Shown piece after piece: positions 35,128-60,258 of a stretch of 64,000 nt of DNA (its first letter is position 1; every line of letters begins with the position of its first letter). A program made the position numbers and the translations under genes. Source of the DNA: Lingula anatina (Eukaryota > Animalia > Brachiopoda); contig CM120643.1 in assembly GCA_051362555.1 (NCBI GenBank), positions 11,630,644-11,694,643 of the forward strand, in the 5' to 3' direction. Below the pieces are notes generated by a model that saw only the letters and a list, made by a program, of their open reading frames with translations, had not been told where the DNA came from and made no database searches.

Positions 35128-35535
35128 TTATTGTGTCTCGTACATGGGGTAATGATCATCCAGGTTATGCTGTGTGGGCATGTAAGGGGACTTGGGAGCC
35201 GATATGCCCACTTTCACAGGGAACCGTCTGCCGGCTATATCGATCTCATACTTAGCATTAGGGTCCATCACCCAGTTCTCATTGATAATATTCCTGTTCC
35301 CTGTGTTGTCTGTGAAATCCTGGACATAGCCCAGGCAGATGTGGGATTCGAGGGAGAACCCATAAGCAGCCGAGGTGGTCATGCCGGCAAATTTCCCATT
35401 TCTATATATGGGTTCTCCTCCCCAAGGCCAGGGGTCACTATGGTTGTCGTGGTCTTCAACGAGGAGTTGGACAAATCTCTTCTTGATTCCCTCTTCTTTC
35501 TGCTTCAGCAGGGCTTCTTGTCCTATAAATGGCTT
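35128..35535 (-). CDS. PDPR: PDPR exon 17, terminal (KPFIGQEALL...YETQ*)
   Basis: tttag acceptor, TAA stop; GcvT C-terminal barrel motifs. Confidence 0.92.
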   Translation of the reverse strand, partial: KPFIGQEALLKQKEEGIKKRFVQLLVEDHDNHSDPWPWGGEPIYRNGKFAGMTTSAAYGFSLESHICLGYVQDFTDNTGNRNIINENWVMDPNAKYEIDIAGRRFPVKVGISAPKSPYMPTQHNLDDHYPMYETQ

Positions 35536-38015
35536 CTAAAATGGGTAATAAAGATTTTTTTTTTTTTTTTGACATAACAATGTCATGAACTGTGAAGGGA
35601 TGAAATAATAAACAGTCCATCTACAGAATATGACTTTTTAAAGGGAATAAAAACATGCATTACAAAATTGCAATGCTTTGGAAACATAAGCAAACAAAAA
35701 AAATGTGAAATTTCTCTAACCTGTTAGACAACAATAATTTGGATATTTATCTACAGGTAAACCAATAGGATCGACATGCATATGTGTGTGTGTGCGTGTT
35801 TGTGTGTGTGTGAGAGAGAGAGAGAGAGAGGGAGGAGAAAAACAGGCAGCATCTTCATCTTACATTCTTTTTCACTCTGAAATCTCTCCCACATTCTAAA
35901 GGTGTAGAGTTGGAGTCCAGGTCAATGCCCCAGTAGGCCAGGTACTTCTCTATCCTCAGACTCCTGTGTGCCATCAGTCCCACGTTCTTCAGACCATAGT
36001 CATGTCCCGAGCTGATCAGGGTGTCATACACATGGAGGGCATACTGTGGCGAGAAAATCAAATATCACAGTCTTCCAAACTGATATCAGACTAAGGGCTC
36101 ATTCCCATTGAAAGTATCGTTCTGCATAGATTGATCCAACTTTGTAGGGACTCTCGCATAATGCAATCAGTTTAACATATTAACATGCTGCCTCTTGTTT
36201 CCAGTGTATTGCTATTCTGTATATTTAACTCAATGCCAGGAGGAGGCATGTTAATCTGTAAATCTGATTGCATTCAGTGAGAGTCCACACAGAGTTGGAT
36301 TGATCTACATAGAGTGATGGTCTCATTGTGAATGAGCACTAAGTATCCATGTGCTTTTCCATCATTCAATTTAACAGCCTTCATAGCAAATACAAATGCA
36401 GGCTTAAAAATATGTCTTCTTTGTTGAAATGAAAATGTGGGGAGAAAACCAAAAATCATAGTGTTTGAAAGCATAAGACTACGTATTCAAGTGTTCTTCT
36501 GACATAAACAACTCTTCTATTAAATCAAAATAAAATAACATAAATCAGTGTCTTCTTTGTTACAATTAAAACAGAAAAAAGATGAAACAGAAAGCTTCTT
36601 TACCTTTTAGTATTTAGGGGGCAGGAGTAAATGGGGGCAATCACATTTTTAAACAACAAAAGAAAACGAAACTAATCAAAACCAACCCCTTTTTGTTTAT
36701 ATCTATTTTAAATACAAGTTCCTGTGCCCGTTATTTCATAAAATTGAACGCATTACCTCTGAAGGTATATACAACATCCAGCCGTCATCTCCAGTGTGGG
36801 TAAGACGCATGGCTTTTATACCACTGGCATGGCCCAGGTACATCGTCTGCAGGAAAAATGGAAAAAGAGCACTGAACTGGGCAAAATATTTACCAATTGG
36901 TAGGCCAGAATAGAATAACAGACACTTTTACTGATCACAGTAACCTGCAGAACTGTCCTGACATATCAGTAGAGAAATCCAAAATTGGCAAATCTCAAAG
37001 GAGAGATATTTTAAATTATAAACCTTGAAAATAATATATTCAAGTGCATTTTTTTACGTTTTTCCAAGACATCAATTATCTCATGCTTCACTCATTGTTT
37101 TTCAAATTTCTTCTTTAATTTGCTTAAAAACCACAGCTCTTCAATCATAACTCTTTCAATGATCTCTCTGTTATTCACGTGATAAAACCAGTTTTAGCAA
37201 CCAACCACAAACCTTGACAGTCATGGAGGGGAACTTTGTTATGTGGAGAGGTATTTCTGCCAACTCATGCAGGAAGTCTTTGGCTTTTGGACCAATCACA
37301 TTGAGTGTTGTATACATGGATGAGACATCACTGAGGATAACTGAGCCATTAGCAGGCAAATGCTGTGACAACCAATTGTAGGCACGTGTCTGAGTGGTTG
37401 ATAGAGATATCATCATATAGCTGAAAAAGAGAAAAAACATGAAATAAAATGGCCATATTACCTCAGGCTAAACACAGGAACTTAGCGGAAGGCCAACCCC
37501 AGTTAGCAGGCTAAACATGAGCGCTGAGCTGAAAACCAGATCCCAGTTAGCAGGCTAAACATAAGCACTGAGCTGAAGGCCAGACCCCAGTTAGCAGGCT
37601 AAACATGGGCACAAATGGAAATTAAAATGTTAAGAAACTGACATTGGGTCTGAAACTCAGGATATGGACGTTTAGTTTACAGATAGGAAAGCTTAAGTTT
37701 CTATCATTGAAAAAATTGTGTTAATTTAATACAAGCTTTTAATTTAGACACCAAGGAAAACTGTCTGACTTAGTAAATTCGCCATTATACACAGAACCAC
37801 TATCAGCACCCCACCCCTTTCCATACACAGTTCCTCACCAATTTTCTGCTACCCTGGCTAGACTACAGTCATTCTCATAGCCTCCCTTGTGGTTGTGTAC
37901 CCCTGTATGGATGACCGTACCCACTGGCTTGTCTATGTCATTGGAGCACATCTTCTGGAGAAAGTCCACAACTTCCGTACCTGCAGACTGAAAAATAAAT
38001 AAATAAATAAATACA

Positions 38016-38058
<43 letters not shown>

Positions 38059-41000
38059 AAAATTGTGTTGATTGCACCTTTAAATATGTCACTGTTGATT
38101 AATATGCTAAACTTTAACACCAGGCAATATAAATCAGCTATGCAATATTGGAATTAAGAACATTTCACAACAGACTGGCCTATAATAACAGCAGTTGTAT
38201 ATCTGAATAAGAAGGCTGAGCTGAGGTTATTTGAGATTCTTTGCCAGACCAGGCCCTGGCATCATTTTGGCCTATATTCATATTACAAGACTTACATGTA
38301 ATAACTACAAAACAACCTGGCCACCCTATTGCTTGGCAGCTAGTTGCAGTCTACACTTACCTTTAGTTCTATCTTGGTAACGTAGGACATGTCGAACAGG
38401 CCCACCCCTTCTTTGCATGCCCAGTACTCAGACGCCACTGCATCAAACCAAGATGGCCGATAGAAGGTAAGGCGGGGGATGGTGTTATCAGTGTACTCTT
38501 CTGAAATGTCATGTTATGTTACTTAAAATATTTGTTCTTGGCAATATTCAAAAGTTGATTGGAATGTGTTAAAGAAACGATATCTGTAAAAAATGGTTAA
38601 TTTACTAATAAATACATCTTGTAGTAAGCAGTGCACTAGTGATGCATACACAATTTTCAATATATATCTCTAGTAGAAATTTAAAAAAAAATTATAATAA
38701 TTATCTAATGATGAATAAATATATTTTATATATTTGTTTACAATGATTTTTGTGTACTCCAGGATATTCTTTGGATGCTGTTTTTTTTTTTTTTTTAGCT
38801 AAATGAGAGTACAAGTAAGCTAAATTAAGCCATATCCCAGTGTAACTTCACCCAAAGACTGGTCACATGCAAGAGGACTTTCACAACAGCATTCCAGAAC
38901 TTGAAACCTTTGACTTTGTCTACAAATGCTGATGTTATACACTAAGTTAGTAAAGCAACACTTTCTACATATGCCATACATATAGTAAAGGCACATTAAG
39001 ACAATCTCAACAATGTAACAGTGGTATATTTAAAGCCCCAAACCTTTTTAATTGAAAGACATAATATTATGTTAACTCACTACAACATTCAAATTCAAAT
39101 GGATTTGCACACTTTGGATTTTATAATGTACCTTTACAGTTGAACCTTGGTTAAAAAAGCTATCAGACTATGACACAATAGTTAACGTATATATGGAATT
39201 TTTAACTCATAGCCCAGTTATTTTTCAAATACCTTGTAAGTATTTCAGGTGAGATCATATCTCTGTATGTGCAACATATCATGTGCTTCAGCTAATAAGT
39301 TAAGAAAAGCTTATATTAGTAAGAGTATTCCTTCCTTCTCTCTTTCTTGACTTCCATAATCTCCCTTCTTCCCATCCCCCAATTCTTGGATTCGCCAACT
39401 TTTAACTGATAATTTGAATTATCATAATTAATAAATTATCATAGATACCACTGGTTTTCTTCACCAAGACAGGGATTAGTAGCAAAAAAGAGGGGGCTAT
39501 TTAAGAAATGGAAAATAAATATATATTCTTTTAAATACTGCTGTGTAGGACAATATATATACTAGTATATGACTGTGCTGCCTCCACCACTGCTCTCACA
39601 TCACACTATATACAGGCTCTTCCTAGACTGGCGTTTTGTCACTAATGGCTTATTTCCTAAATATTTTTGGTTAAAGAAAAAGTTGAATGTGTAAAAGAGT
39701 TTACAACTATTGCTTTGCCAAATTTAATTTGACCTAATCAATTTAAGGCATCTGACTCAAATCATTCGTTTTATTTGTGTAAAGGAAAAAAGACTTGAAG
39801 TAAAATAAGATATCAAAATCAAAAATAATATTTTTGAAAATATTTACCCATTTCTTTAAGCCAGTAGGATCAAACCAAACCAGTGTCGAAGAGATCCCAG
39901 TATACAGATATGATAACAGTACAATATGTACCTGGTTTTAAAAATTTGTAGCCTTTGTAAGCCCCTGAAATGTTTTATTTACACCAATATATTATCTTTT
40001 TTTATTATAAGTGAGTGCAACAAGAGATTGACAACCTGTACGTACATGGTGGCTAGTATAAAATGGATTCCCGGTAATTTTCATGAGCAGCATTTATGCA
40101 ATATATTTACAAATACATATTTACTATCAACAGAACTTCAAATTGTTATTCCAAGCTGTTTTGAACTGAAAAAAAAAAAAAAATGTACCATGAGGAGGTG
40201 GATGGCAATATTTATTAAACAAAAGTTAAACATAATTATTATTTCATGATATCATTATATGTGCAGTCATTTATTTTACCTTTTTAAACCTTCATATGTT
40301 TAATTGCCTTTCTTTCAGATCTTAAGCAATGACAGTTTCTGAGACTGAATTCCCCTATTTTGTATTTTGTAGAAATGTTCATCTTGTGAAATCAATCTAT
40401 AATGTTTGTGATAAATAAAGAATACTCGTTGTTCAGTCTTCAGCTCCAAGTAATCTGTAATCATATGTTCCTGGCTCAGTACAGCTGATTTCTGTCAAAA
40501 GAGTATCAACTTAAAATGTTAGATCCCTAGTTCAGAAAAAAAATGACTACAATTTAAACAGTTGTAGTTGCTAAAAGCACTGTCTAAGAAATATCTTTGA
40601 TACACATCATCCCCAACAGCCATAATGCAGAGTTTTCCAAGCTAGGCCAGGCCTGGTACGATCTCACAAAACATGAGCATGCTTCCGATTGGTTGTCTAT
40701 CATCATGTGACACTGCCCCAGCAAAGAATATCCAATTCCCTTATAACAGTCCTTATGATAAATACGTTCACAAAGATCCTCTAGTTTCTGCAAGTATGCT
40801 GCAACTTCTGCCTCCTCGCCACTTTCGTGGGCGCAGATAACACCAAGGAACAGACCAAAGATCGGAGAGTAAAGTGGCAACAGTGTCAGCCTTCCTGTCA
40901 GGCAATCTAGGGCAGGGCTTCCCCCAGGATTACCGGCATAAAGAACATACTGAACTGCCTCTGGGAGACAGGACAAATGTGAAAATTTCACAGGGAAATA

Positions 41001-44000
41001 TAAATCCCAACCAAAGGAATTGGTTTTCATTGCCCAACAGAGTAAATCTGCATGGTCTGTTATCCCAGATTCATTTTCTAGAAGATGCGTTAGTTCTTGT
41101 GGGTAACTATCAAGTGTAGCTGTTTTGTCACAAATGCAAGCTGTAATGTGAAATTTCATATTTTCATGGTCAAGAGCAAACTGAATGTATTTTTTGGCTT
41201 TTTCAAAATACATGGCAGCTTCTTCCAATTTTCCTACAGCTTTGGCTGATTTGCCTCTGGAATAATATAAATTTGCAACTTTCAGTCTACTACCAACTTT
41301 GTCCAAATTGACAGCTGAGAGTAAAAATGTTTCAGCTTGTCTAAAGTAGGAGTCATTTCCCTGTGATATTGCCAACTCTTGGTACATACAACCAAGAGAC
41401 TGAAAACAGAACATTTGAATCAATCTGAACACAAGCCTTCCAACAGTTTTGTTTTTGGTGCTCAAACAAATCTTCTTAATGCGTTTAAAAGACACAGCCA
41501 TGGTTAAAGGGTCCTCCGTCTGAATATCATCTGGTTTTAAGTAAGGTAGGCACTGAATGCCACAGAGGCGAAACTGTAGATTCCCAGTGCCATCTTTTCT
41601 TTCCTTCAAGCTGCTTATCATCATTAGAACTAATGAGATATTAACTCTATAACTCTTTATTGCATATGAAAGCAATTTCAGTTGAACATCTGTAGCAGTG
41701 TCCAACAAATTGTTCTCAGGCACGAAGTATACAGGTAAATAACCCTCGTCAACAAAATATTGGAGTCGTGCCAGACATTCTTTGACACATCTGACCAGAC
41801 TCCCTCTTTGCCAAAGTTCTGGGGGAGTTTCGTGTACCATCCAAAACATTACAGTTTTCATGTGGTACGAACACAGCACATTTTGGTTTTCAAACCTTTC
41901 ACCTATTTCAGCCGCAATCAATGACTTGATATATTTTAAAATGAAATATGTTCTATGCTGGGTATCATTAAAGGATCGAATTAATGTTCTCTCAGCAACT
42001 ACAGTGGATATACGCCACTGGTATCTTTGACGAGGTACAATACTGTTCTTATGACCAACAGGAACAACATGGCAGCCATCTTTCAAAATGGTGGCAATGT
42101 CTACAGTCTTTGGCCAACCAAATCTTCTTGTACGCCTGAACCATTTTCTTACACAATGGGGCCAGCTGGCAAATGGATAGGCAAGGACGTAATCCATGCT
42201 GGTGTCTTTCCTGTTCCCTGATACATTCAAAGAAACAGCCGGGCCTTGTCTTTCAGGACCAAAAAAGGACATGTGCATTTTATATTCTCGGTAAAATGCA
42301 TCTGCTGCTACTCCACTAGACGTGTAACCATTTTTGGAATTCAGTTTGCGCAGCATGCCATATCCATCGTGCATACCTTGGCCGTCCCACTCATAAACTT
42401 CCAAGGCACGGTTGGCACGTGGGAGGTCATCCTTTTCACAAATAACCAATTTTTCTAACTCACAAACCATGATATCACTGTCTGAGGGGACAGGAATAGC
42501 ATCAGCATTCAAACCATAGGAGGAGGACTCTCCAGAGCTTCCCAGACTGAACACTCGGTATTTATCTGGGTCATTGGTATACGAGTTGTCAAGGATTTCC
42601 CGTAAGTCTATGTCCAAGTAGCTCAACTCAAACTGCTTCTTAGACCAACCAAACCTGTCCAAGCCTTGATTCACTTCCTCGTTCTCCTTTATGCTTTGGC
42701 CAGAGGCTGCCATTTTGTGTTTAAATAAAAAAAGAACTGCTAGGGTAAAAACACAAGACTAATATGTTTGTTCTTCAGCACAGCTTTATGTACTGTTACT
42801 TCATGATAAGGTCTGTTCTTCTACATGGTCACATTTACCACTGAGAAGTGATCTGATGTAGTTAATGTTTAACAACATCTTTGTCTTTCAACTCCATACT
42901 TATATCAACACTAACTATGACATATCCTTCTATGATGCAATCACTATCTTGGTCCAGAGCCTCTGTTTAGGTCCAACAGTAAGATATAGAAGCATGGGAC
43001 TGATGGGACACCATATGTTCAATGTTACCAAGTTCAAGTCCATCTCCTATTTTGTCTAGTCACCGATTCCTCTGCAAGATATAACCAGTCCAGTTGACAC
43101 TTGATCTTTACAGCAGCAATCCTCGTTCTTTTCTTCCCTGTTATTCCACAATGACTGACCCGTCAGTTTTTTCCACAACGCTTACAGCTGACATTCCTTG
43201 TTCACTCAAGCATGGATAAACCTCCTTCACAAATCAGCCCATATGGTGACGCGCTTGATACCTTGACAGCTGCTTTCTCTTTAATTCAACCTGTTCTAGG
43301 GGCGGATCTAGAGATACTTTCTGATGGTCTTCCAAATAATCTTTGTTGATCCATCCTCCTTTTTTGACCATCCTCCGACAGAAAAAAATAAGATACCCGC
43401 CAGGGTAAACTTGAACATCTGACCATCTTCCAGAAGACAACCTCAATCCGCCCCTGTGCTCTATCATCAGACTGGGGTTTTTCTCTTATCAAAGTCAACA
43501 AAGCTTCAATGTAAAGTAGGTCACAGTTATTGAATATCGCACTTACAGCACCATGACGTCATTGTAAGACCTAACGTGAATGTCTGGCCTTAACAAAAAA
43601 TCAATACTTTTCAATGCTTAACACAGAAATAAATAATTTAATGTTTTTCAATGCTTAAATAAGTAGAGAAAGTATAATAAAAAACTGAATATAAATGAAA
43701 AAGGGCACCTTTATGTAATACTGGGTATATAAATATATCAAGTATATACACAACAAAATCTAACGACATGTTATAACTAATATTAAGACATACTCCTCAC
43801 AGCTTTCAACAGTCTTGAGCTCTAGCTGTCATGACCAATGTATAATCCTAGCTTCTGTTTGTTCACAAATACACAGTCATGATTTCAGTTACTTGTGTAA
43901 CTGGTTAAAATGAGATTCAATTTTGTTTCATGCATACGAATGAAAATGGGATATTTACCCACAAATAAGGAAATCTGAAGGAATTAAGTTCTAAAGAGTT

Positions 44001-47000
44001 CTTTCCTTAGATACCCAGGACATAATCATCGATGAATATCAAACCATAAAATAAATGACCCAAAATATCAAAAAGGTATTGCTCTTTGCTCCTAGTCTTG
44101 AACATTTTTGCAATCAGTATACACTGATTTGTAGTCAATAAATGACAGACTGCAATATGCCTTAACATGTAATATGTAATTACAAAGCAATATCTGGTGG
44201 AGATTTATCTATTTATACACTGATATAAAAGTAAGTACTGAAAAAAAACCCTCTTAATGCCATGTCATTGACTGTCAGTAAGAGTTAAAAACAGAGAGCC
44301 ATGCCACTGAAGAGAAATGAAACATAAATACAGAAATGGGAACAGAGGATGCTAAAAATCTGAAGACCCCCCCCTCTACACACACACACACACACACACA
44401 CATGTGTGTGCGCACACACATCCCAATGAATTTCTTCTGTTTTGGCACATTTCATAAAAAATCAAGCAACTTCTTTAACTCTCTTCTACACATGAAAAGG
44501 ATATAATCCACACAAAGGGATGAAAATTTCAATCCCTAAAATATCATGTTAGAAAATATAACACTCACAAGATAAAAACCCTGTTTGATGGGGCAGTGTG
44601 GGTATTACAAACTATTGCAAAAAAAACCAACTTCAACACAAACTTTTCAACCATCAAATTGCTTCAGTGACACCTCAAAGAACAGAAAAAATATCATCAA
44701 TGTTAATAATGGCACACTTTTTAACCTTTTGTCATCACGTGCAAAATGCTCTATTTGCATTTTGTAAAAACTAAGAGAACAAACATCATAGATGCAGAAC
44801 TATCTATCGAAATTTTTTTTCACTTTTTTTCATCAATAAAATTGAAGCAGGATAAAAATATTATGCAAAATCACACACTTCTCAAATAGTAACACATCAT
44901 GCCTTGAAGACATAGCATTAGGCTGCGTTCACATGAAAAATCTATTTTCTAAAAATCTTTTTGCGTTATCTTGTGATCACAGTCTGTGCCCTGAATACAC
45001 CATGGTGTAATTACTGGCAGGGCCAAGAATTAATTACAGCTTTGGAAGTAACTGGCTCGCACTGCCCGTTATTACGCCGTTGGGTATTCAGGGCACAGAT
45101 CATGATCACAGGATACAGCAAATATATTTTTAGATTTTCAGAAAACAGATTTTTCATGTGAACTCAGCACTAGTCTACAAGATTAAAAGAATTGTGTATA
45201 CTTGTTTTTAAAGGCGGGGTTCTGGCATAAGAGTAGCGCAAGTATTCTTTATCTAAAAAGAAGCAGAAATGTAACTACTTACAATTTATATACATACATT
45301 TATATATGAATATGAACATGCTATAGTACATAGGTAAGGATTATTGATAAAAAGGAGTACATTTAATGCCAGTATCATCTTCACAGATATTCATTCTTCA
45401 TACTGATACAACATATTTCTGCTTGCAAGTTAAAACATAATACAGCATAAATAATGCCCTGTAGTTATTTATATCAACTACATATGAGAGTCTTATATTT
45501 TAAATGGTAAAAGGTTAACTACTGAAAACACTGCCCCCCCCCCCCCCCCTGCTGGTGGTGAAGGTAGAAATCAAAAGTGAGCTATTTGCTGTAAAAGTAC
45601 CTCTGTATACTTGAATTCAAAAATTAAATGAGATTTATTGAAATTTAATTGAAATTCTATGAAGTTTCTAATACAAATGAGAGGTCATACGAGATTTCCG
45701 TTTTTGCGAGAGCACATGCGCACAATAGTCACTATCTCGAGTGACCAGCATTGCAACTCAGAAATTTGTTGCAATTATAATACCACTATACAACAAAAGG
45801 AATATAAATTCCTTATATGTTTCTCAGATAATATAAAAATTATCTAAGGTGTATTATAAAAATCAACCCATAAATATGGTTATGATTTTTTACATGATAA
45901 CATAAGTTATCTTAGGTTCATTATAAATATCAACCCATAATTGTGGTTTTACGTTTCTATGTAAACCAGGCATTCCCCCCCCTCCCCCTTTTTTGCTGTG
46001 GAAAAGGGGAGGTGGGTGGGCGTATGACCTCTCATTTGTATTAGAAACTTCATAGAATTTCAATTAAATTTCAATAAATCTCATTTAATTTTTGAATTCT
46101 ATTTCGTTTCTATACAAATGAGGTCATACGAGATTCCCGTTTTATGCGAGAGCACATGCGCACTTGCGCATATCTTCACAGTTCAAAGCTTGCTGGTCAC
46201 GAGAGCAAGTTTAGCTCAAAATATAATACTACATAACTTTTCCAATTATTCAAACTGCTTTAGAAAATTCTTTCCCTTCAACAGGTTTATTGTAGTACTT
46301 AGCAAGCTTTGCTTGAAAATCATCAAGCTGCTTTTAAAAATATCATATACGGGAAATTATGCTGCTGACACTGCTGCAGCTTGGGTTGAATGAGCCTTAA
46401 ATGATTCTTATACACATGCTTGGTGCATCAACATCCGAATCCATCTGGATATTGTATCTCTTGAAACGGATGAAAAAAAGGCTTTCAATAACTAATAATT
46501 TTTTTTTTTTTTTTTTCCTTTGCCATTTATTAATGGTTTTGTTCTTTTCAAATATTCTTTAACACATATCAATGTATGCAATCCCCTATTTAGGGGGTAC
46601 CATAAAAATGTAAATGTTGTTGTACCAACACCTGGTCTTGAACTGTTTCAAAGTTTCTTTGATTTTAAATAAAACAGTTTTTGTGAAGTTCTAACTCTCT
46701 GAACTTCAATAAATGCACAAAATCTTTTTGTGCAGATGTAAGAGACATGAGGATGATAAACTTCATTGAAAAAAATCTTTCAATGATAACTGTCTTACTG
46801 GTGACAGTTTTCTTAAGTAATGTTAATCAATTGATACATGTCAAACTTTCTGATATCTGGGTGCACTGGGTCAGTGTTAAAAACTCCTTTCAAGAACCAT
46901 ATAATCTAAGGATGTCTCCCAACCGTCGAAGCAACAATGCCAATAGTTGTTGATAATGCACATCTAGCAGTGTCTATAGCACTGTTATTTGAGCCATCTT

Positions 47001-50000
47001 CATAGAGATGTACTTAAAAGTCTAGCACATTGCTGTAGTTGGTCTATTCAAAATGACCTTCACTTTATTTGAAAACATTCTCCACTTTTTTATATAGACT
47101 GAATAGTGGTTTTTTGCACATGCTTTAAATATGATTTCAATAGCTTTCTCTGTAATTCTATCTGACTTAACAGTTTTCCTGATACTTTGCATGCCAAAAA
47201 TTTCATGCAGTCTCCTATTGGGTGTGTCACCCCTTTCTGGTGAGAAAAGATGTTAATACTGTTGTTGCTGGCAGTAAAAAGAATAGGAATATCTTCTAGT
47301 GAATATTTCCTTTAAATTAATTGCGTCAACCATAAAGGTATCACAACTTAAGCATCTGCCTGATCTTTCCCAAAACTTCTTGATTATCCTGAGCATCAGA
47401 CTGAAAAGGAGGAATACATTCTCCTAAGATATCAAAAACATTGTCGTATTCAGTACCAGGTTCTGGTTTCCAAGCAGCAAATATTCCTCATTTGCTATTT
47501 GATCTTGATAGATCTAATAAAATTTATATGTGGCATAGCTAATATATCTGTCACTTTTTAAATACATAATATTTAGTGACCATTCAGTTGTAATATTCAC
47601 ATTTCTGGATTCCTTATATGCCTTTACATTTTATTCCAGGCAAATAATTAGCAGTAAGCCATATGTCATTTTCAATACAATGATTTTTTTTTTTTTTTTC
47701 TTTTTCTATATTTGTGATACTATTTCATCACAAATTGATCATGAGGATTTCAAAACCTCACGTGTAATATATGCAACTGCAGTAGAATTATCGTATCTTT
47801 GCTTCGATATTTTGAATTAAGGCATGTAACGACATTTTATAACAAGCAATTCAAATGCATTGAAAATATCATGACAGAATAAAATTCTTCAGTAAAGAAT
47901 CCACCAATTCTCATATTTCTACATTCATCTAGCCATGCTAAAGGAGTAGCATTCGATTGAAGTTCAATCTGTGCATTGCCATGATTAATCTTACATGTTG
48001 CATATAAAAATATTTCTAGACCACCATTCTAGGTCTACTTCCTTTATCTGTAAAATCCATTACAGCTTCATAATCATCTTTATTTTCTTTTAATGCTTTA
48101 ATTTTTCCTCTCTCTAGTTCCTATAATGCAACTGTCCATATCAGACTCATGCAAACATGACATTGACATTTTTCTAATATTTTTGCTGTGTCTCTAATAG
48201 ATGCGTCATCTCTTGTTATAAAAACATCAATCTTTTCTTTATGAACTTCTTTCTTTTTGTTGGCAAGTTGCACAGTCATGTTTTCAAAATTTATTTTCAA
48301 ATCCCAAAATACAATTTCTTGAGTTGGGATTAATTATCATACAGACTTTTCTTCATGAATCAAAACCCCACAAGTTTTGAAAAACTTGACAGTTTCTTTC
48401 ACTGCCCAAAGACATTCATTTTGTATATAAATGTCATCTACGTATGATATCATAATATTCCTTTCCTTTTTAATGTTGCACATAATGGCTTTCATAAGTT
48501 TTAAATGCTCCAGAACATCTGAATAGCCACATTTAAGGGCAGAATGTATGATTTATTTCTCCACTCAAATCTGAGAAATTTCTGATGCTCTGTAAATTCT
48601 TAGCATATGATATGCATTTCTGAATCTATGCATGCCATGAACTCTTTATGACATATAAATTTAAACTGTCTTCAAAGTATCCATTTCAAACTTATGGTAC
48701 TTCATAAACCTATTCAAAGGTTAAACATTATTATCTGTCTTATGCCATCTTTTAGGCCTAGTATATATATTGTATTGACAAATTTGTCCTCTTCATTATG
48801 TTTCAACAATGACAACTTATGTAAACATGTTGAAACTTCTGTATCAACAAAATTTTCTTCAGATTCTTTGAATCTTATTTCTTTCAATGGTGTTGTCTGT
48901 TTTGGATGTAATCATCCATAAACGTCAATCTTAGACTTATAACAGTCTGTAACACCCAAGCATCAGAAGTTAACAATTCCCACTGGAATATTCTACTAGC
49001 AATGTTATGTTGAAGGCATACTTTAAATTTTCCTTCAACACTTCTACTTCCAATGATTTTTTTTTTTTTTTTTTTTTTTTGTATCCTATTGCCTGTGAAA
49101 GGTCCTAATTAACCTCTTTTAGTGCCATTTCTTTTGCACATCCATTGCTCTAAGGAAATATCTTCCCCTAGCTCACATGATAACTCTGCTTCCTCTGGGA
49201 GTCCCAGAATATGATGGACCAGTGTCTTAGACACTTGATAATTCATTCTATTTTCATGTAACTGATTCTTTTTACTATTTCATCCCCACCAAACCTATTG
49301 GTACCTGGGATGGAATTTTCACATAAATGTATATGTATAGTTTATCTATGTGAGGTCTTAAAACATCTTCCCTTCTTGAACAAAGTTGAAAGTTTGTGCA
49401 ACTAAATGCTCGAATTGCATTCATAGCATCATAAAATAATTCTTCAAAATCTTCTTCCAGATTCTTTAGTATATGAATCTCATTTACTAATGAGTTTGTT
49501 TATTTCAAGTGTCAAGGAGGAATCACCCTTTTAAATAAATGTTCACTCTGTGAAACCTTCAATCTTATGATTCAGCATCATGACAGATGCTAGGCCATTT
49601 TTCCCTCATTTATTATTATTGGTTTCAAACCTTCACAGTTAGAAGGAGTCAATTTTTATCATTTTCCTGGTAAAATTCTTCCTCTAATTTATTTTCATTA
49701 TTATCATTTATCGTACATGTATCATCTTCATGGGCAGCGTCTGCCATATCAACAAGATGATCTGAATTCTGCACTTCACTACTTGTAAATACTGATGTGT
49801 CATCAGAGATTTTCTACTACTAGTAAACACAGACGTGTCGTCAGAGATTTGGTCTTCACTACTTGTAAACACTAACGTGTCGTCAGAGATTTGCTCTTCA
49901 CTACTAGTAAACACAGACGTGTCGTCAGAGATTTACTCTTCACTACTAGTAAACACAGACGTGTCGTCAGACATTTACTCTTCTTAATAAACATGAGAAG

Positions 50001-53000
50001 GATATTCATACCTGATTTTGTTTTTTAAAATCCTCCATTTGCTTCTAAATATTAAGTTTCATATTCTTCAGTGAGCCAGTTATTTATTCTAATGCTGCAC
50101 TGATTTTCCCACCACAGTCGTGGCATTATCGGTACTCGTTGACGCGCCATTTTCATTTCTCTCATTAACGTTATTCTGCGTCAATGTTTGATTCCGTGTT
50201 AGAAAATGTGATGCGTCACCACTTCTTTTGACTTCCCGTCGGAAGATTTTTGTGGCCCTGCGGCATTTTGTAACTTTTGGTCTATTTCCGACCTTATCAG
50301 CCATAGTATTCATTGAATTTTGTGCCGCTCTCTGGCCTCACGTGCTGTGCTCGCTCGACAAGAAACCGGAAGTGAAGATATGCGCAAGTGCGCATGTGCT
50401 CTCGCATAAAACGGGAATCTCGTATGACCTCATTTGTATAGAAACGAAATAGAACTATATTCATATGTTACAACTTGACCCATTTGTCCCCATCTCAAAA
50501 ATGTAAGAACCTTTCCCCAGAGTTTGCCTTCAAATGTAAGTAAATTCAGTTCAACTTTCACATACCAAATCTTTGATTACAACTACCTAAAGGAACTTTC
50601 TACTATGAAAGCATGTTAGAATATTTTTAGTTTGGTAAAATCATTCTCTTTTACAAACCAAGAATCAACAACAATACAGTTAAAATGCTCAAGTAATTTG
50701 TGATTAATTTACAGAAAGCCAACTAAATACATCTTCACAACTATTACCTGTTCAAAATGGGAGAAATTTTATGAATATAGAATCGGTTTCAAAGGGATCG
50801 ATGATCAAAATAATGATATAATAATTCAATGATTTCACTGGACAAAGTGGCAAAGCACTACTTTTTCTTACCAAATGGTATCAAAGCTAGCCTAGATAAA
50901 TACAGGTCAATGGAGCATCAAAAACTACCGATGTAAGTATACTGAAAATTCCAATAATTCTTAAAGATTCATTGTTATTAGACAAGTGACTGTGTCATAT
51001 TGGAATTCGTAACAATCATTATAATATATAATATAATAATCACTGTAATTTACCTCTGGTTTGTTCCTCAAAATACAGAGGTCTTTCAAACCCCATGGTG
51101 GATCCATACACTGCCCCCTGCTCCAGTAGTATGGGGTAGAGAGGTGAGGTTCGTAACTTCCTGGACGACCTGTAGTCACACTCTGGATACGGTATGCTGT
51201 ATGTTGTCCCTAGAGGGGAAAGGATTAGTTATCATTTAATGTCAAAATCAATTATTCAGAGATGGGGTATGTAACTTTTAGAATGACCTGTTATCACATT
51301 TCGGGTATGGTATACTGAATGTTGTGCCTAGAAAAGAAAGCATTGGTTATCATTTAATTAAAGAGATCTACCTAACACCTCCTTCACCCTGTCTCTCAAA
51401 AACTTCTTGTTGTTGTGAAGGTCAACAAATCTCTTGACGTCCACAGCCCACAGGTCCCAAGTGGGCTCTCCGTTGACGATCCACTCTGCGACGGCGTGGC
51501 CAATTCCACCTGCTGAGACGATACCCAAGCTGCTCATTCCTGCTGCTACAAAGTACTTCCTTATCTAAAAGAATAGATTTTTATCTGATTATTCTGGTAC
51601 ATTTGGATGATTATTAGTAAACTTTCAAGGCAATCAGCTGATTGTGCACTGAAGCAGCTCAGATTCTGCCTGTTACATCATATTATAATCTGCAATGAGA
51701 GAAAGTAAGCATGCAAAAAATTGTATTGTTATATATAGTAACTAATTTGCATTCTTCACCTCTCACAAAAATGTCAGTATCTTAATTATCTCTTTCCTCA
51801 CAACATCCTTATCATGCCACTCTCTCTCACTCTCTCTGGCTCTCTCTCCCACCAATCTCTCTTTCATCTCCATATCTTTCTTCCCCCATATTTCTATCTG
51901 TATAACAGTATTGTTTAATCAATTTTTCCCTTTTTCTTTAACTTGTATTTTATATTGTAGTGTATTAAAAATAATTGGATTTTAGACTCTAAAAAATATC
52001 ACTATAATGTATAATATTATGTCTTTACCTCAGGACATTCTCCCACAATAGCTCTTCCATCTGGGCTGAAGCTTTCTGGACCGTTCGTCAGCTGTCGGAC
52101 CTCCGCTGACTCCATGGCAGGTATTCTGTGAAGAATCTGGTCAAGAAGGATCTCTACAATATGGAAACAGACACTGTCTTTATCAGATGTTACAAATTAT
52201 GTGAAGAATCTGGTGAAGAAGGAGCTCTACTATATGGAAACAGAAACTATCTTCATCAGATGCTACAAATTATGTGAAGAATCTGGTGAAAAAGGAGCTC
52301 TACCATATGGAAACAGAAACGGGACAGAATGTTTGGCAAAACCTGGTCATGGTAGTAGGGGTAGTGTACAGCTACTGTCAGCAAAAGAGTTAAATTTTCC
52401 AGATACACAGCAATAGAGAATACAGCTGTGTACATTCACTGAAATGTTTACAAACTACTTCTACCAATTTCTCCAGCAACTCAAATGATATCTTAAACAA
52501 GTTAAACCCAAATTACTAATTTTTGGTGGTAAATGCAACCTACTTACTTTCCTTCCAGTCTATCACATACAGCTCATAAGCAGAAAATATCTGCGCAAAT
52601 ATCATTTTTTGTTCAATGGCAAGCTATAATATAAGACGCCATGGCATGACGCTCTAAATTATGACATAAAACATTTTCCAGCTTACGAAAGTGATCCCAG
52701 TCTTCCTGAAGTAATTGGAACTCAAACTTTTCTGGGATGTGTTCGTGGAAGACGGCCTTGGCAGTGGGCTCAAACCCTCCAGCAAGTATCCCTCCACTCC
52801 ACTCACGGAAATAGACAGCACCATCTGGGTCACGAATAACTAGAAGATAAGAGAGTAAAATAAATTAGAAACTCAACATTGGAATCAAATACTCAAATCT
52901 GTCAGTCAATAATATATTTTCTGACAAATGCTTAAAACTTGGCAACAAGTACAACAAAAAACTTTTCCAATTTCACAGAATTAATGATCAACCAATGGCA

Positions 53001-56000
53001 GTACATTCGTGATCCCTGATGTCATGTCGAGCGAAGCACCTGCACCTTTTATCAAAAATGTTAAAACAATTTTAAATTTCTCTATAACAATATTACAACT
53101 AACCTGGCATCATAGGATCCACACCGAATGGTTTAGTAACCAGGTGATAGTGTTCACATGAGTGCAGAGGTACTCTAACACGGGGCTCACTTCGCTTCCC
53201 AAGTTCCCGTCCCCACTGGAAGTAATGCATTTATATCTATTCAGTGTTTATCTATTCTCTGTAATTCCGATTCCCTGTCATACTTATACTCAGTATTATA
53301 CTTATTTTGTTAGTAGGTGTCAATGATTTGTGTATCAAAGGCCAAAGGCAATACTAGTATATTCATTCAACACATCTGAAAATGTAGTTGCAGTCCACAC
53401 CCAGCCGTGAACATCAATAACATTTTTATAGGCAAGATCAAAATGTTTTGTTGACTAAAGCTTAAAACAATGAAAGAGAATTTTGTATTTCTTTGAACCA
53501 GCAAAAGTCCACTCTGAATTAAAATTTGATCTAGGTTCTAAAAAATTTCTCAAGATGGGTCAATAAAAGGAGAAAAAAAAATTACCTTCAAAAAAAAATC
53601 CAACTTCCAAACTGCTGAATACAGACCTATAATTACTAGTTTCACAAAAAATTACCAGTGGATATGCTGGATATGTGAGTTTGTTCTCATATTTTCATAC
53701 CCACCTGCCCTGCACAGTTGACAAAATATTCACATCGTATTGTTCCCAGGTTGGTGTCCACTCCTCTCACTTCCTTGTGTTTTTCATCTGTAAGTACCTG
53801 GTTAACTTGGCACTTCTCAATTACCTTAACGCCTGTACAGAGGAGATGAAAACATTTCACTAAATGTTTCCAATTGGCAATGAGCTGACATAACTTTGAG
53901 TGACTGACTGATTCTGACTGATATACAATATGGAGCAACTGTTATTCCCATGTGGATACCAATAAACAGATAAATAAATAAATAAACTTTACAAGTATTC
54001 ATAAAATCTGGGCATGATGCAGAAAAATAAAGATTAAAGAGGTTTCTACCTTTCTGCTTGGCCAGTCTGGCAAATGTATTGACAATGTCACTGGGACTGG
54101 CTGCTCCGTCAGTTGGAAAGAACTGGGCATACTAATAAAGGGAAAGTAAAGAAAATTTAAGCATTTAATTTCGAAAGATTTACGAAAATTTTACAAAATC
54201 AGCAAAACTTTACACATTAAAATACAGAGTTGAACAAGGCAGCAAAGCTGTCAAATGTACAGACAAAAAACAGAAAATAAAGATGCAACAAGGCAGCAAA
54301 GCTGTCAAATGTACGGACAAAAAGCAGGAAATAACAAAATAGGCTACTGTCAATTCTGATGCAGAAGTACATTATGTTAAACTGCAAATTCAACATCAAA
54401 TTTTAATTATGCTCAACAGGTAATACCAATGTAAGTAAAATGTAAAACAAGCATAAGGCTTCAGGCCCATGGGAGTTCAAGTTCACACTTTGAAAATGTA
54501 AAACTTCCAGAAAAAGAAGTCAATTAGACTGCTTTTCCAACTCAGGCTGCATTTTAGTCCTGTATTTCTTTTTTGAAAGTTTGGCAATCATAAGTAACAT
54601 GGTTTTCCCATAATGGTCATCATGGCAGCAGCACCCAAAATTGTGTTTTCTTCTATTCTGATGCAATATTACATAATGGTTAACAGCATAATGACAATCA
54701 ATTTTTAATAACAAAATATATGTATCATGGATTTTCAGAAAATGTGACTAGCCTGGGTCTTCAAGCCTGTGGAACTTCAAAGTCACACCTTGAAAATGCC
54801 AATATGTGAAAAATTAAATTTTCACAAAAAAACTGTTTATCTGGCAGATTGCATTGCCTACTGAAGCTGTATTTTAGTCCCATGTTTCTTTCCTGTAAGT
54901 TTGAGAACAGTAAGTGACATGGTTTTTCTTAAAAGGTAATCATGGCAGCAGTGCCCAAAATAGGTTTTTTTCAAATTTTGATGCAATATTACATAATGTT
55001 TTACAGCATAATGACCATCAATTTTTAATAATAAAATATTAGTATCATGGATATTCAGAAAATGTGACTAGCAAAGGTCTTCAGGCCCATGGAACTTCAA
55101 AGTCACAACCTGAAAATGCCAAAATGTAAACAAGACAGCACTGTTCTGAAATGTTTTTTTCACCATTTTTAACAATTTTTAACATAAAACAAAATTAACA
55201 GTTTACTGCCATTTTTATATGATCAACTAAGAAAATTGATGAGATGAGAAAAGTATCAATAGAGCAGTGTTAAATGTCCAATTTCTTCCATTCTAAGATT
55301 CTGAACATAGTGAATGATTGAATCTGACAAACTGCAATGATATGAGTTTATTTCCATTTTTGAAACTTTATTACACAATACACGATAACATGTTTACCAT
55401 CATTTTTACAAAATCAACTAACAATGTTGTAAAGATGCAGGAAATGTCAAACAAACACTTTCACGTATCTTATTAGTTTAATAATGAGACTGTTAACATG
55501 CCTAAAAATTGAATCTGAGGAAATGTGAAAAAACAGCATACCTTCTAAAATAATGGCACGATTATGCTGATTTACAAACTCAACCTGCATTTTAGTAAAA
55601 TTGACCACTCCTGTGACTTTCATGACAATTGGCCCATCTGTTTTTCTTATATTGTGTTTACAGTGTTGCATATATGCTGAAAAGTGTAAAAAACAGCATA
55701 ACTAGTAAAATGGTGGCCCGATCATGCCGATTTTCGAACTTGACCTGCATTTTAGTAAGATTGATTACTCCTGTGAGTTTCATGACAACAGGTCTATTGG
55801 TTTTCCTTGAAATGTGTAAACAGTGTTGCATATATGCTGAAAAGTGAAAAAACAGCATAACTACTAAAATAGTGGCCCGATCATGCCGATTTTCGAACTT
55901 GATCTGCGTTTTAGTAAGACTGATTACTCCTGTGAGTTTCATGACAACAGGCCTATCGGTTTTCCTTGAAATGTGTTAACAGTGTTGCATATATGCTAAA

Positions 56001-59000
56001 AAGTGAAAAAACAGCATAAATTCTACAATAATGGCCCGATCATGCTGATTTTCGAACTTAACCTGCGTTTTATGAATATTAGTCAGCTCTGTAAATATAA
56101 AGCCAAAAAGTAAAACTGTCTTCCACTTATGGTGTTAACGCTGAAAGTGCACGGCGACGGCGACAGCGACGGCGACATGATCGGCGACGGCGACGGCGAC
56201 GACAGACGCAGGTGATGGCAATATGTACAGACACATCTGTGTCTGTACATAAAAAAGACCTAACACTAAAAATCTTCAAATTAAATCCTGAGATATAATA
56301 AGCATCCTTGTTTCTTCGTAACTTATTCAGTACTGAGTATCAATAGATCAGGCTATCCAATACAAGGTGTGCATGCAGATTTAACTTCAATAAGACTCTA
56401 GCATTTGTCTGAATACTTGTGTACAGGACTACTTCATTTTCTTCTCTGGCCAATTTTCCTTTTTATAACAGAATTTTAACATACTGTATAAAATCATGCC
56501 AGTTAGATTTCCAGTCAAAATTTAAACCTATTGATCCATCAGCTCACCAAGGTGTAAGGGCCTATTCCCAATTTCACCATAATTCTACATAGATCAATCC
56601 AACTCCGCGGGTAATATCTCTGAATGCAATGAGTGTACTAGTAACAGATTATTAAATCTCTTCCAGACACAGAATGCAGAAAAGCTGGTGATTATATGAG
56701 TACGTTGGAAATGAGAGGAGGTATGTTAGTCTGTTAACTTGATTACATTCAGTGAGATTCTCTTCAGAGTTGGATCAATCTTTGTACAATTATATTTCTA
56801 TTGGGAATGAGCCTAAGAAATATGCAGGGTCAAAACAGAAATAGTGGCCCAAAAACAAGTTAACAAAAATTCACTGGCTCTGCTTCATCTTTCTGGTATC
56901 CATGACAAAGACTGCAGACTGAAACATCTTATATCTACCTCAATATCATCTGTCCTCAACAAAGGGGCAAGGTCAAGGGCCTCCTTTGGGGTTATTTCAT
57001 GGCACTCAAGTCCAATTGTTCTACAAAATACAGAACGCAATTCAAATACATGCATATATCAATCAATCCACTTATGAAATGAATCACATGTGCACATAAA
57101 TATCAGATATTAATCACTCAAGAAGGGTAGATCCAGAGATATTTTCCGAGTCTTCCAAATTATCTTTGTTGATCCATACCCCATTTCTGACCATCTTCTG
57201 ACAGAAAAAATTAGATGCATGTCAATGTAAACCTTCAAATTTGGAAGACCCAGAGGACATCCTCCATCCATCCCTGCAAGACACTTAATAATTTCGAAAT
57301 GAAAGCCCAGAGAGCTCATAAAAGTGGTTGCAACTTACTCAACTGTGCTGCAGACTACTATGTACACAAATTTAAATATATGCGGCATCTGGCACCCATG
57401 TGTAGTGTACTGTTGTTGTGGTGAAATGTTCACCAGGCACAATTGTATTAGTGAAGATCATGAGAGAATGTTGGAGAGGGGGAAAAAATTAAAAATAGCT
57501 TTTTGGCGACTTGTTGTTGTATATCAATCTAGGGCAATACGGACATACATGATACTATAACACCACATCTAGAACAGTATGTATTAATTATCTTACTTGG
57601 CAACAGCAGCGTTCCTCTTCATGGCCACCATTCTGTCGTGTGTTCTAGCTATGCTGATGCTGCCACAGGGTTTGAAGCCTATGAAAACATTGTCAACTTG
57701 GTCAAAAACGACAGGGAGTTCAGGACATCAACATTTGAACATTTACTGCTGTTTAGATATTTTTTTTTTTGTCAGCTGTTTTTTTTATTAAACACCAAAA
57801 CAACAGGAAACAATGTAGAGTATTGAACTTCATGCTCATCTAAAACAGAAATGTTTACATGTCAAATTTTTTAGGCCGAGTTATATACCAAGATAAATCT
57901 TACTGCCATAATGCTGTAATGTATTGTATATTTCATATTAATCATTTACTGTAATAAGCACAGAAATTGTGACTTAATTTTGATAAAATAAGTGTTGGGT
58001 TAATTATAAGTGCTAGTAAACATCATCTGGGATGTAAGTATTAACGAGAAAAACAGTTCAAAAAATTATCTCAGCAAACCTGAAAACTCAGTTTCCTGAA
58101 CAAATTGCAAGACATTTTTGGGACTAAGATACATCACTTGTTCTGTGAACTTCTTGAAGCCAATGTCCAATATTTTTCTTTCAAATTTAGTTGCTTGATG
58201 GCATTGCTATCCTCAAAAACTCACTTTTTTTTTGCTATCTGCAACAACATAGTGGTACAGAGGCAGCAGCTGTGCTAATGATTTAGCTAAAACTGACCTT
58301 GTTTTCATAGCTATCATCAGGAGTCACCGTCCACTGAACCATTTGTAAATGTTGCTGCCTGTGTCCAGTCATGATGATGCACATAACACGTTATTAATGA
58401 GAATACAGGGAAAGTATACATCTATGTATGGCTACACAGAAAAGCTATGGCCATCTAAGACAAAACGTTCATAGTATTGAGCAAGCAATGGATCTTAGGC
58501 TTCCTGAAAAATCTCACAGAACAAGAGCTTGTAGTGCTCATATTTCAGCTTCATGCAGATGCTGCATCAGTCATTTCTTTCAGATACGATCAAATTGAGC
58601 ATGCTTTTAGTGACATATCAAAGCCAAATTCAAACCTACTATCTCAGAACTCAATTAGTTAAAAAATGGCTTCAGCTCAAAAGAGAGAGATGGCAAATGT
58701 TTTTTATAATAGCTTTACCGTAATGTCATTTCAATTTCTACCTTTTTGCTTACTAGTAACTTTTTCTTTAATATTTCTAGTATTTATATTTATTTTTCAT
58801 CATATTGTGTGGTCCTAGCAGCTCCCCTCCTACCTGTAGCCTCTCCCTGGTCCTCTAACCTTTTATACAGGTCTCGGCTGTACATGTAAAGTTTGTTCAG
58901 AGCTGTGTTCCCCTTCATCTGGCCAATCAAGCCAGCAGAATGCCATGTCGTACCACAGGAGAGCCTGTTAGAAAACTGTGTTGTTAAAGCAATAGTACAG

Positions 59001-60209: not shown

Positions 60210-60258
<49 letters not shown>

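What the first reader, a model, noticed from the sequence alone, without database searches (positions are those of the whole stretch)
40584..42713. Intact cGAS-like receptor (Mab-21 NTase plus TPR-like tail) nested inside a mitochondrial metabolic gene
Seen: a 709-codon uninterrupted ORF in otherwise stop-rich intronic DNA, on the same strand as PDPR and inside its intron 11, with candidate polyA signals downstream (minus-strand AATAAA at ~40270 and ~40211). Known: GS followed by DxD and a third Asp (here G58-S59, D78, D80, D174) is the metal-binding triad of cGAS/DncV-like nucleotidyltransferases, and animal cGLRs make cyclic dinucleotides for STING signalling. Inference: this is a catalytically competent innate-immune sensor whose ~330-aa TPR-like tail may set ligand specificity. 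It probably arrived by retroposition or transposition.
Basis: partly seen in the sequence, partly recalled or inferred. Interest (0 to 1): 0.85.

Follow-up and report, generated by a model that had tools for sequence, protein, structure and literature searches.

The report
Brachiopod cGAS-like receptor inside PDPR intron
An intact, transcribed gene for a cGAS-like enzyme with a predicted TPR-like tail lies inside an intron of a brachiopod mitochondrial-metabolism gene; it is likely an innate-immune signalling receptor, but it is one more member of a large known family and its nested position looks incidental.

Summary
A 709-codon ORF (42713-40584, minus strand) lies in an intron of PDPR, on the same strand, between two alternative micro-exons. 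It is 98% identical to Lingula anatina RefSeq LOC106177725, an 'uncharacterized' gene. Pfam, profile and AlphaFold/fold searches show a complete cGAS/cGLR nucleotidyltransferase (residues ~5-370). G58-S59, D78, D80 and D174 fall on near-invariant family columns. The ~310-aa tail is a predicted TPR-like helical solenoid shared by 92 of 93 full-length relatives. RNA reads cover the ORF at 5-21x in three runs, with empty intron bins on both sides. PDPR splices across it, and 29 listed read differences give dN/dS of about 0.16. Long cGLRs with C-terminal TPRs are published (Li et al. 2023), including 13 Lingula cGLR genes; this gene is missing from their table. Catalytic activity, ligand and the tail's role are untested. 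Retroposition is not supported: no target-site duplication, A-tail or parent gene was found. Two possible PDPR-cGLR fusions got no read support. Verdict: new member of a known kind, modest interest.

The parts
40584..42713 (-). Single-exon CDS of the long-form cGAS-like receptor, 709 aa
   Evidence: 692 of 708 residues identical to Lingula anatina LOC106177725; RNA depth 5-21x in X18-X20
41604..42701 (-). cGAS/Mab-21 nucleotidyltransferase domain (about aa 5-370) with G58-S59, D78, D80, D174
   Evidence: Pfam Mab-21 E 1e-7 and Mab-21_C E 1.8e-16; Foldseek TM 0.70-0.74 by target for the top cGAS rows; VIA Z 26.4, rmsd 4.0, 314 aligned to Cv-cGLR1 8GJW; motif columns
40587..41516 (-). C-terminal helical, TPR-like solenoid (aa 400-709), shared across the family
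   Evidence: tail HMM from 92 relatives scores the query 97 bits, best control 5.2; tail model pLDDT 82.8; best VIA Z 12.3, mostly TPR proteins
40211..40583 (-). Candidate 3' UTR with AATAAA at 40275-40270 and 40216-40211
   Evidence: RNA depth falls from about 9x to about 1x between 40637 and 40137; cleavage site not determined
42714..42745 (-). Acceptor-like pyrimidine tract and tandem AG, 26 and 23 nt before the ATG, in phase with PDPR's phase-1 donors; no read shows it in use
   Evidence: X19 reads run on colinearly and lack the tandem AG, and 3 of 4 X17 reads carry a 1-nt deletion at 42727
51055..51213 (-). PDPR coding exon 11, the constitutive exon upstream of the nested gene
   Evidence: its end appears as loose ends at 38502 and 39966
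45202..45252 (-). PDPR alternative micro-exon A (51 nt; RefSeq X1/X2)
39932..39964 (-). PDPR alternative micro-exon B (33 nt; RefSeq X3), downstream of the cGLR
   Evidence: joint 38500-39932 with GT-AG ends in X18, X19, X20
38361..38500 (-). PDPR constitutive exon downstream of the nested gene
35131..60610 (-). Host gene PDPR (pyruvate dehydrogenase phosphatase regulatory subunit), coding span
   Evidence: GT-AG joints in RNA

Best explanation
This is an intact, transcribed gene for a long-form cGAS-like receptor, nested in a PDPR intron that the host transcript splices out; it likely works as a ligand-activated nucleotidyltransferase making a cyclic dinucleotide for STING, with the predicted TPR-like tail likely acting as a regulatory or partner-binding module. 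Shown: open frame, expression from the minus strand, PDPR splicing across it, cGAS-type fold in the model, conserved GS and three Asp, purifying selection on the tail, and a tail shared across the family. Inferred from cGAS/cGLR chemistry: ligand binding orders the GS loop, D78/D80/D174 hold two metals, two NTPs are cyclised, and the product binds one of the two Lingula STING proteins counted by Li et al. Inferred more weakly: its own promoter (start site not found), dsRNA as the most likely activator (pI 8.0-8.7 is borderline for the nucleic-acid-sensing class), and no functional tie to PDPR.
For: Pfam and PDB sequence hits. A family profile matches Sp-cGLR1 at E 5.6e-44 with the GS and three acidic columns on its catalytic motif. 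G, S, D, D, D are kept in 86, 85, 90, 88 and 91 of 93 relatives, and all five in 85 of 94 aligned sequences. AF2 pLDDT 83.7, pTM 0.85; fold matches to cGAS and cGLRs. RNA: 5-21x over the ORF in X18-X20, 0-0.2x in intron bins 38634-38800, 39302-39468 and 42809-42975. Stranded X12, X15, X16 and X17 give the same read orientation as PDPR exons. cGLR depth is at or above PDPR exon depth in X18-X20 but several-fold below it in X12 and X15, which fits separate control. dN/dS about 0.16, p 1.4e-5. Seven of 15 active cGLRs respond to dsRNA and two to dsDNA (PMC9980059 section 6); Lingula has 13 cGLR and 2 STING genes (Table S5).
Against: No activity data. Only 15 of 140 screened cGLRs were taken forward as the active panel, and the two Lingula long forms carry no active label. 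Position 63 is Ser where 81 of 93 relatives have Gly. The strict published motif is not matched: L57 for Q/T, polar S79, and a 93-residue spacer against 50-90, although relatives deviate alike (median 105). Full-length pI is 6.9. dN/dS covers only codons 579-709 and rests on 29 ORF rows among the 40 shown of 212 listed places. The best-covered runs come from a divergent population (about half their reads 90-95% alike), so the depth contrast may reflect population or tissue. Inter-residue distances in the model were not returned.
Confidence: 0.62

Rival explanations
1. The protein is a real cGLR-fold gene product but is not an immune cyclic-dinucleotide synthase. It may be catalytically silent or work as a scaffold or other nucleotidyltransferase, as with MAB21L1, MB21D2 or MiD49.
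For: The model also matches MB21D2 (Z 25.1), MAB21L1 (Z 21.8) and MiD49 (Z 19.1). Most screened cGLRs were not taken forward as active, both Lingula ones included. S63 departs from the family Gly.
Against: All five catalytic-motif residues are kept, as in 85 of 94 aligned sequences. A 631-aa oyster construct, Cv-cGLR2, is in the active panel (its tail was not compared). The family is very large in molluscs, as immune receptor families tend to be.
Confidence: 0.22
2. The ORF is an alternative last exon of PDPR: a PDPR phase-1 donor splices to the acceptor 26 or 23 nt before the ATG. This gives an in-frame PDPR(1-518/535)-cGLR chimera, or a PDPR-driven transcript.
For: A pyrimidine tract and tandem AG precede the ATG, and both AGs are in phase with the exon 11 and micro-exon A donors; phase alone has a 1-in-3 chance. 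No independent start site was found, and depth is near zero at 42809-42975.
Against: No listed joint or loose end links 42739/42736 to PDPR (the tables showed 15 of 48 joints and 17 of 19 loose ends, and depth there is only 1-4x). Six X19 reads run colinearly upstream and lack the tandem AG; 3 of 4 X17 reads have a 1-nt deletion that shifts the phase. RefSeq keeps the two as separate genes.
Confidence: 0.07
3. The cGLR is spliced from an internal donor at 40765 to the PDPR exon at 38500, giving the 1040-aa cGLR-PDPR fusion held in one database record.
For: Record P0010 joins cGLR residues 1-650 to the PDPR C-terminal half in frame.
Against: Reads run straight through 40765-40764, and the GT reads as AG in 9 of 9, 10 of 10 and 11 of 11 reads of X18, X19 and X20. 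The only joint listed in the 5-kb lay is 38500-39932. The fusion would cut off the last helical repeat, the best-conserved part of the tail.
Confidence: 0.03
4. It is a recent retrocopy or transposon-carried passenger, transcribed only as intron read-through and not maintained by selection.
For: Single coding exon; lower GC3 than the host (0.40 against 0.54); low depth in X12, X15 and X17.
Against: dN/dS about 0.16 with no stop among 29 differences. A compensating indel pair at 42554/42557 keeps the frame in X19. Flanking intron bins are empty. No target-site duplication (12-nt best repeat, reached by 20 of 100 shuffles) and no adjoining A-tail. No close parent: the next hits are 28-43% identical over the matched stretches.
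Confidence: 0.06

Closest known systems
Animal cGAS-like receptors (cGLRs) of Li et al. 2023 (PMC9980059), long forms with C-terminal TPR
   Same: NTase core plus helix bundle, GS loop and three acidic residues, about 650-780 aa, TPR hits near the C-terminus (Table S2: 51 'TPR' occurrences, 30 seen, at residues 465-775). Nine of the 10 Lingula rows seen, of 14 in Table S1, are 643-816 aa.
   Different: This gene (LOC106177725/LOC112041235) is not in their Table S1; a control LOC id was found. It lies on a long branch (1.6 against a median of 0.59) with no well-supported close relative, and has Ser for Gly at 63.
Solved cGLRs Cv-cGLR1 (8GJW), Sp-cGLR1 (8GJY), Tribolium cGLR (7LT2) and vertebrate cGAS
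   Same: Same two-lobed fold: Z 22.8-26.4 over about 300-317 residues; profile match E 5.6e-44 to Sp-cGLR1.
   Different: Only 16-21% identical; those chains are about 345-390 aa and match none of the 310-aa helical tail.
Oyster Mab-21/cGAS-plus-TPR proteins noted in PMC8195603 (XP_011454060.1)
   Same: cGAS-like domain followed by TPRs (passage).
   Different: Those carry N-terminal HEPN, immunoglobulin and DED-TRADD-N domains; this protein has none.
Lingula anatina RefSeq LOC106177725 and LOC112041235
   Same: 17 and 19 residue differences in 709; both records lie on contigs of the same length as PDPR records (684,446 and 28,833 bases).
   Different: Named only 'uncharacterized protein'; the window holds a further allele (exact sequence not in the collection).
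Same-strand nested genes (Drosophila survey, PMC3814207)
   Same: Nearly 10% of fly genes are in nested structures, and 72.5% of same-strand nested genes have one exon.
   Different: Different phylum; the same-strand orientation is the minority class (about 29% in flies).

Membership tests
cGLR (Li et al. 2023 criteria) | G[S/G] activation loop and [E/D]x[E/D]...[E/D] catalytic triad | tested here: met
   G58, S59, D78, D80, D174 align with near-invariant columns and with the Sp-cGLR1 motif through the family profile
cGLR (Li et al. 2023 criteria) | Literal pattern h[QT]GS X8-20 [DE]h[DE]h X50-90 h[DE]h | tested here: inconclusive
   L57, S79 and a 93-residue spacer depart from the letter of the pattern, but relatives do too (median spacer 105), and Lingula proteins accepted in Table S1 have first spacers over 20
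cGLR (Li et al. 2023 criteria) | Homology across both the NTase core and the C-terminal helix bundle | tested here: met
   Pfam Mab-21 and Mab-21_C both above cut-off; profile covers 8GJY residues 44-373
cGLR (Li et al. 2023 criteria) | Predicted structural homology to cGLR/CD-NTase enzymes | tested here: met
   AF2 pLDDT 83.7; Foldseek E 4e-11 to cGAS; VIA Z 26.4, rmsd 4.0, 314 aligned
cGLR (functional sense) | Ligand-activated synthesis of a cyclic nucleotide second messenger read by STING | not testable with these tools
   needs biochemistry; Lingula has 2 STING genes per Table S5
Nucleic-acid-sensing cGLRs | Basic NTase domain, pI above 8.5 | tested here: inconclusive
   pI 8.67 for residues 20-375, 8.04 for 1-375, 6.94 full length; criterion from section 6
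TPR repeat proteins | 34-residue repeats above Pfam cut-off | tested here: not met
   TPR_2 18.1 bits (cut-off 27), TPR_12 17 (30.1), TPR_1 14.4 (27.8) for the single protein
TPR repeat proteins | Stacked helical-hairpin solenoid fold | tested here: inconclusive
   tail model is almost all helix; best Z 12.3, rmsd 3.9, 188 aligned, mostly TPR proteins but under the tool's threshold of about 13 for helical repeats; Foldseek best E 0.004; family profile hits consensus TPRs at E 1e-16 over its last ~40 positions
Retrogene | Target-site duplication, genomic A-tail, intron-bearing parent | tested here: inconclusive
   no duplication above chance and no adjoining A-tail, but these decay with age; no genome held for a parent search
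Nested gene | Lies wholly within an intron that the host transcript removes | tested here: met
   exon 11 joins 38500 and micro-exon B directly in reads; RefSeq X1-X4
Nested gene | Own transcription start | tested here: inconclusive
   colinear reads upstream of the ATG in X19, but no start site called

The most novel reading that the evidence does not exclude
In some haplotypes PDPR's exon 11 or micro-exon A donor splices to the in-phase acceptor just before the cGLR start, producing a PDPR-cGLR chimera whose PDPR N-terminus carries a cyclic-dinucleotide synthase into mitochondria, next to mitochondrial nucleic acids.
Probability: 0.04. Interest if true: 0.8.

Novelty: new member of a known kind. 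Interest (0 to 1): 0.3.

Why it matters
It adds a divergent, expressed, selectively constrained receptor to the brachiopod cGLR set that the published catalogue missed. The open question belongs to the family, not this locus: 92 of 93 full-length relatives share a ~300-aa TPR-like tail, and none of my literature searches returned a functional study of it. Pfam sees this tail poorly, so published TPR counts probably understate the class. A single-exon member is an easy construct for asking whether the tail gates activity or binds a protein or RNA ligand. The nesting in PDPR is ordinary unless a chimeric transcript is found.

Tried and rejected
No whole genome is held, so no parent or paralog search was possible. 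No RNA holder was listed by the run index; same-label raw-read runs were laid instead. The metagenome scan with the single protein gave 18 pattern matches and no relative, and the alignment was too diverse for patterns, so intron state and synteny of relatives were not seen. The word-index search found only 6 homologs both times; the exhaustive search found 3,021. A Pfam scan of all aligned members was over the size limit and not repeated. The 1040-aa fusion record was rejected as a likely gene-model artefact. Repeat searches found no terminal repeats or target-site duplication around the ORF. The NTase tree left the protein on a long branch with weak support (0.74), so no sister group is claimed. 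The IFIT1 match of the family tail profile (E 1.3e-7) was not upheld by fold search (E 0.05-0.09 among many TPR proteins) and is a lead only. The sigma-70 promoter scan does not apply to an animal and was ignored. Earlier scan findings: none. Gerdol et al. 2018 on Lingula immunity was seen only as a reference-list entry, and Li et al.'s supplementary figure PDF was too large to read; either may mention this gene or class.
Full report
Observation. The minus-strand ORF 42713-40584 encodes 709 residues. It is the longest of 22 ORFs of 100 aa or more in the window, and chance cannot give it (about 1e-19 at the window's stop density). The named residues G58, S59, D78, D80 and D174 are present, as are AATAAA hexamers starting at 40275 and 40216. 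The protein matches Lingula anatina LOC106177725 at 692 of 708 residues and differs from LOC112041235 at 19 positions. The window is therefore Lingula, and the gene already exists in RefSeq as 'uncharacterized'.

Host gene. Lingula PDPR isoform X2 maps to 18 coding blocks on the minus strand between 60610 and 35131. The ORF lies between coding exon 11 (ending near 51055) and the exon starting at 38500. Two alternative phase-1 micro-exons flank it: 51 nt at about 45252-45202 and 33 nt at 39964-39932. RefSeq isoforms X1-X4 already use one, the other or neither. Reads show exon 11 joined directly to 38500 and to the 33-nt exon, and that exon joined to 38500. PDPR thus splices across the ORF.

Domain one. 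Pfam gives Mab-21 (151-246, E 1e-7) and Mab-21_C (258-352, E 1.8e-16), both above cut-off. An exhaustive search found 3,021 representatives at E up to 0.001 and 1,725 at 1e-10; 89 of the 149 listed relatives are 600-800 aa. Of the 19 looked up by name (PDPR aside), the NCBI-named ones are bivalves and one tubeworm; the Atlas clusters are mostly Mollusca. I aligned 90 of the 149 (620-850 aa) plus three oyster proteins. The query's G58, S59, D78, D80 and D174 fall on columns holding G, S, D, D, D in 86, 85, 90, 88 and 91 of 93 relatives. One departure stands out: Ser63 where 81 of 93 have Gly. A 113-sequence profile matches Sp-cGLR1 (8GJY) at E 5.6e-44 with those columns on its catalytic motif. 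The AlphaFold model (pLDDT 83.7, pTM 0.85) puts D80 and D174 on confident strands, D78 just before the first of them, and the GS at a strand-helix turn. It matches cGAS by Foldseek (E 4e-11) and Cv-cGLR1 by VIA (Z 26.4, rmsd 4.0, 314 aligned), with MB21D2, MAB21L1 and MiD49 also high. Distances between the acidic residues were not returned.

Domain two. Residues 400-709 score below Pfam's TPR cut-offs. An HMM built from the tails of 92 relatives, without the query, scores the query tail at 97 bits; the best of 200 shuffles and the reversed sequence reaches 5.2 (tail boundaries came from an alignment that included the query). The tail alone folds as an almost all-helical solenoid (pLDDT 82.8). 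Its fold matches are mostly TPR proteins but modest: best Z 12.3, best Foldseek E 0.004. 'TPR-like' is fair; a specific TPR family is not identified. The tail is a family trait, not a feature of this locus.

Expression and selection. In three oligo-dT runs (X18-X20, one study) the ORF is covered at about 5-21x, while intron bins 38634-38800, 39302-39468 and 42809-42975 hold 0-0.2x; a few other intron bins carry scattered reads of up to about 5x, some belonging to micro-exon B. In stranded runs X12, X15, X16 and X17, depth is 0-3.3x, all in the orientation of PDPR exons. cGLR depth equals or exceeds PDPR exon depth in X18-X20 and is several-fold lower in X12 and X15. That fits separate regulation, though study, tissue and population are confounded. 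X18-X20 come from a divergent population. The tool showed 40 of 212 differing places; 29 lay in the ORF, all in codons 580-709. They split 18.5 synonymous to 10.5 non-synonymous, giving dN/dS about 0.16 (binomial p 1.4e-5), with no stop. Unshown rows could shift this, and the NTase domain was not measured. A compensating indel pair at 42554/42557 in X19 keeps the frame.

Fusion tests. One database record (P0010, 1040 aa) joins cGLR 1-650 to the PDPR C-terminal half. Its donor GT at 40765-40764 reads AG in all 30 reads of X18-X20 there, and the junction is not listed; it is probably a modelling artefact. Separately, a tandem AG 26 and 23 nt before the ATG is in phase with PDPR's donors. No listed joint or loose end uses it. 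Six X19 reads continue colinearly without it, and 3 of 4 X17 reads carry a phase-shifting 1-nt deletion. Depth there is 1-4x and the tables were cut (15 of 48 joints; 17 of 19 loose ends), so a minor isoform is not excluded. The start site was not found.

Origin. The longest exact direct repeat flanking the ORF is 12 nt, reached by 20 of 100 shuffles, and no A-tail adjoins the polyA signals. No terminal repeats bracket the ORF. No close parent appears: after the Lingula gene itself, hits are 28-43% identical over their matched stretches, and the protein sits on a long branch. No genome was available for a paralog search. In Drosophila 72.5% of same-strand nested genes have one exon (PMC3814207, passages), so a single exon does not by itself point to retroposition. 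An old retroposition remains possible and untested.

Mechanism. By established cGAS/cGLR chemistry (own knowledge, and PMC9980059 sections 5 and 6), ligand binding would order the GS loop, the three aspartates would bind two metals, and two NTPs would be cyclised into a messenger for STING. Lingula has 13 cGLR and 2 STING genes in that paper's Table S5. dsRNA is the commonest known activator (7 of 15 enzymes), and nucleic-acid sensors there have pI above 8.5; this NTase domain is borderline at 8.0-8.7. Against over-confidence: 15 of 140 screened proteins formed the active panel, and the two Lingula long forms have no active label, though a 631-aa oyster construct does. The tail likely regulates or binds partners; ligand selection by it is conjecture.

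Comparison and novelty. Li et al. state that some cGLRs carry TPR modules. Their Table S2 has 51 'TPR' occurrences (30 seen), and Table S1 has 14 Lingula rows (10 seen, 9 of them long). This gene's LOC ids, accession digits and two peptide strings were not found in the six readable supplements, while a control id was. PMC8195603 (passage) also notes oyster cGAS-plus-TPR proteins. Searches listed no paper on this gene, on a cGLR nested in PDPR, or on the function of the tail; subscription papers such as Gerdol et al. 2018 were not readable. The protein meets the three bioinformatic criteria for a cGLR, apart from the literal spacing pattern that its relatives also break. It is a new member of a known kind, with interest 0.3.

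Noticed in passing
window 59756-59628 and 58963-58835 (minus): PDPR has a tandemly duplicated, mutually exclusive exon 2 in the FAD-binding region; RefSeq X2 uses the first copy and X1, X3, X4 the second.
   Followed up: partly
window 45252-45202 and 39964-39932 (minus): Two unrelated in-frame PDPR micro-exons (17 and 11 aa) are used alternatively or both skipped, in a linker that varies among other lophotrochozoan PDPRs.
   Followed up: partly
window 43305-43456, second copy 57130-57276: Short dispersed repeat with inverted ends, MITE-like, about 600 nt upstream of the cGLR ATG; heavily covered by reads from other copies. Could supply a promoter; untested.
   Followed up: partly
window 44922-45168: About 250-nt imperfect hairpin repeat directly after micro-exon A, abundant in RNA reads on both strands.
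   Followed up: no
window 45613-46179 and 50372-50454: Perfect 79-nt and 83-nt inverted repeats within PDPR intron 11, probably nested young elements.
   Followed up: no
window 49736-50025: 42-nt tandem repeat; this region and 49936-50599 show PDPR-sense read depth in X12 and X15, possibly an alternative PDPR 3' end after exon 11.
   Followed up: no
window 4828-31148 (plus): Sodium/hydrogen exchanger exon at 4828-5301 (Pfam E 2e-10) and a 460-codon acidic, Pfam-blank ORF at 29766-31148 that may be that gene's long cytoplasmic-tail exon; it converges on PDPR.
   Followed up: no
records P0009 and P0008 (28,833-base contig): The second RefSeq cGLR copy lies on a contig of the same length as a PDPR C-terminal fragment identical to PDPR X2, so it is likely a haplotig of this locus, not a paralog.
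   Followed up: partly
runs X18-X20 laid on window 38300-43280: Reads under the same species label differ by roughly 5-7% over the cGLR, which suggests a cryptic species or deep population split.
   Followed up: no
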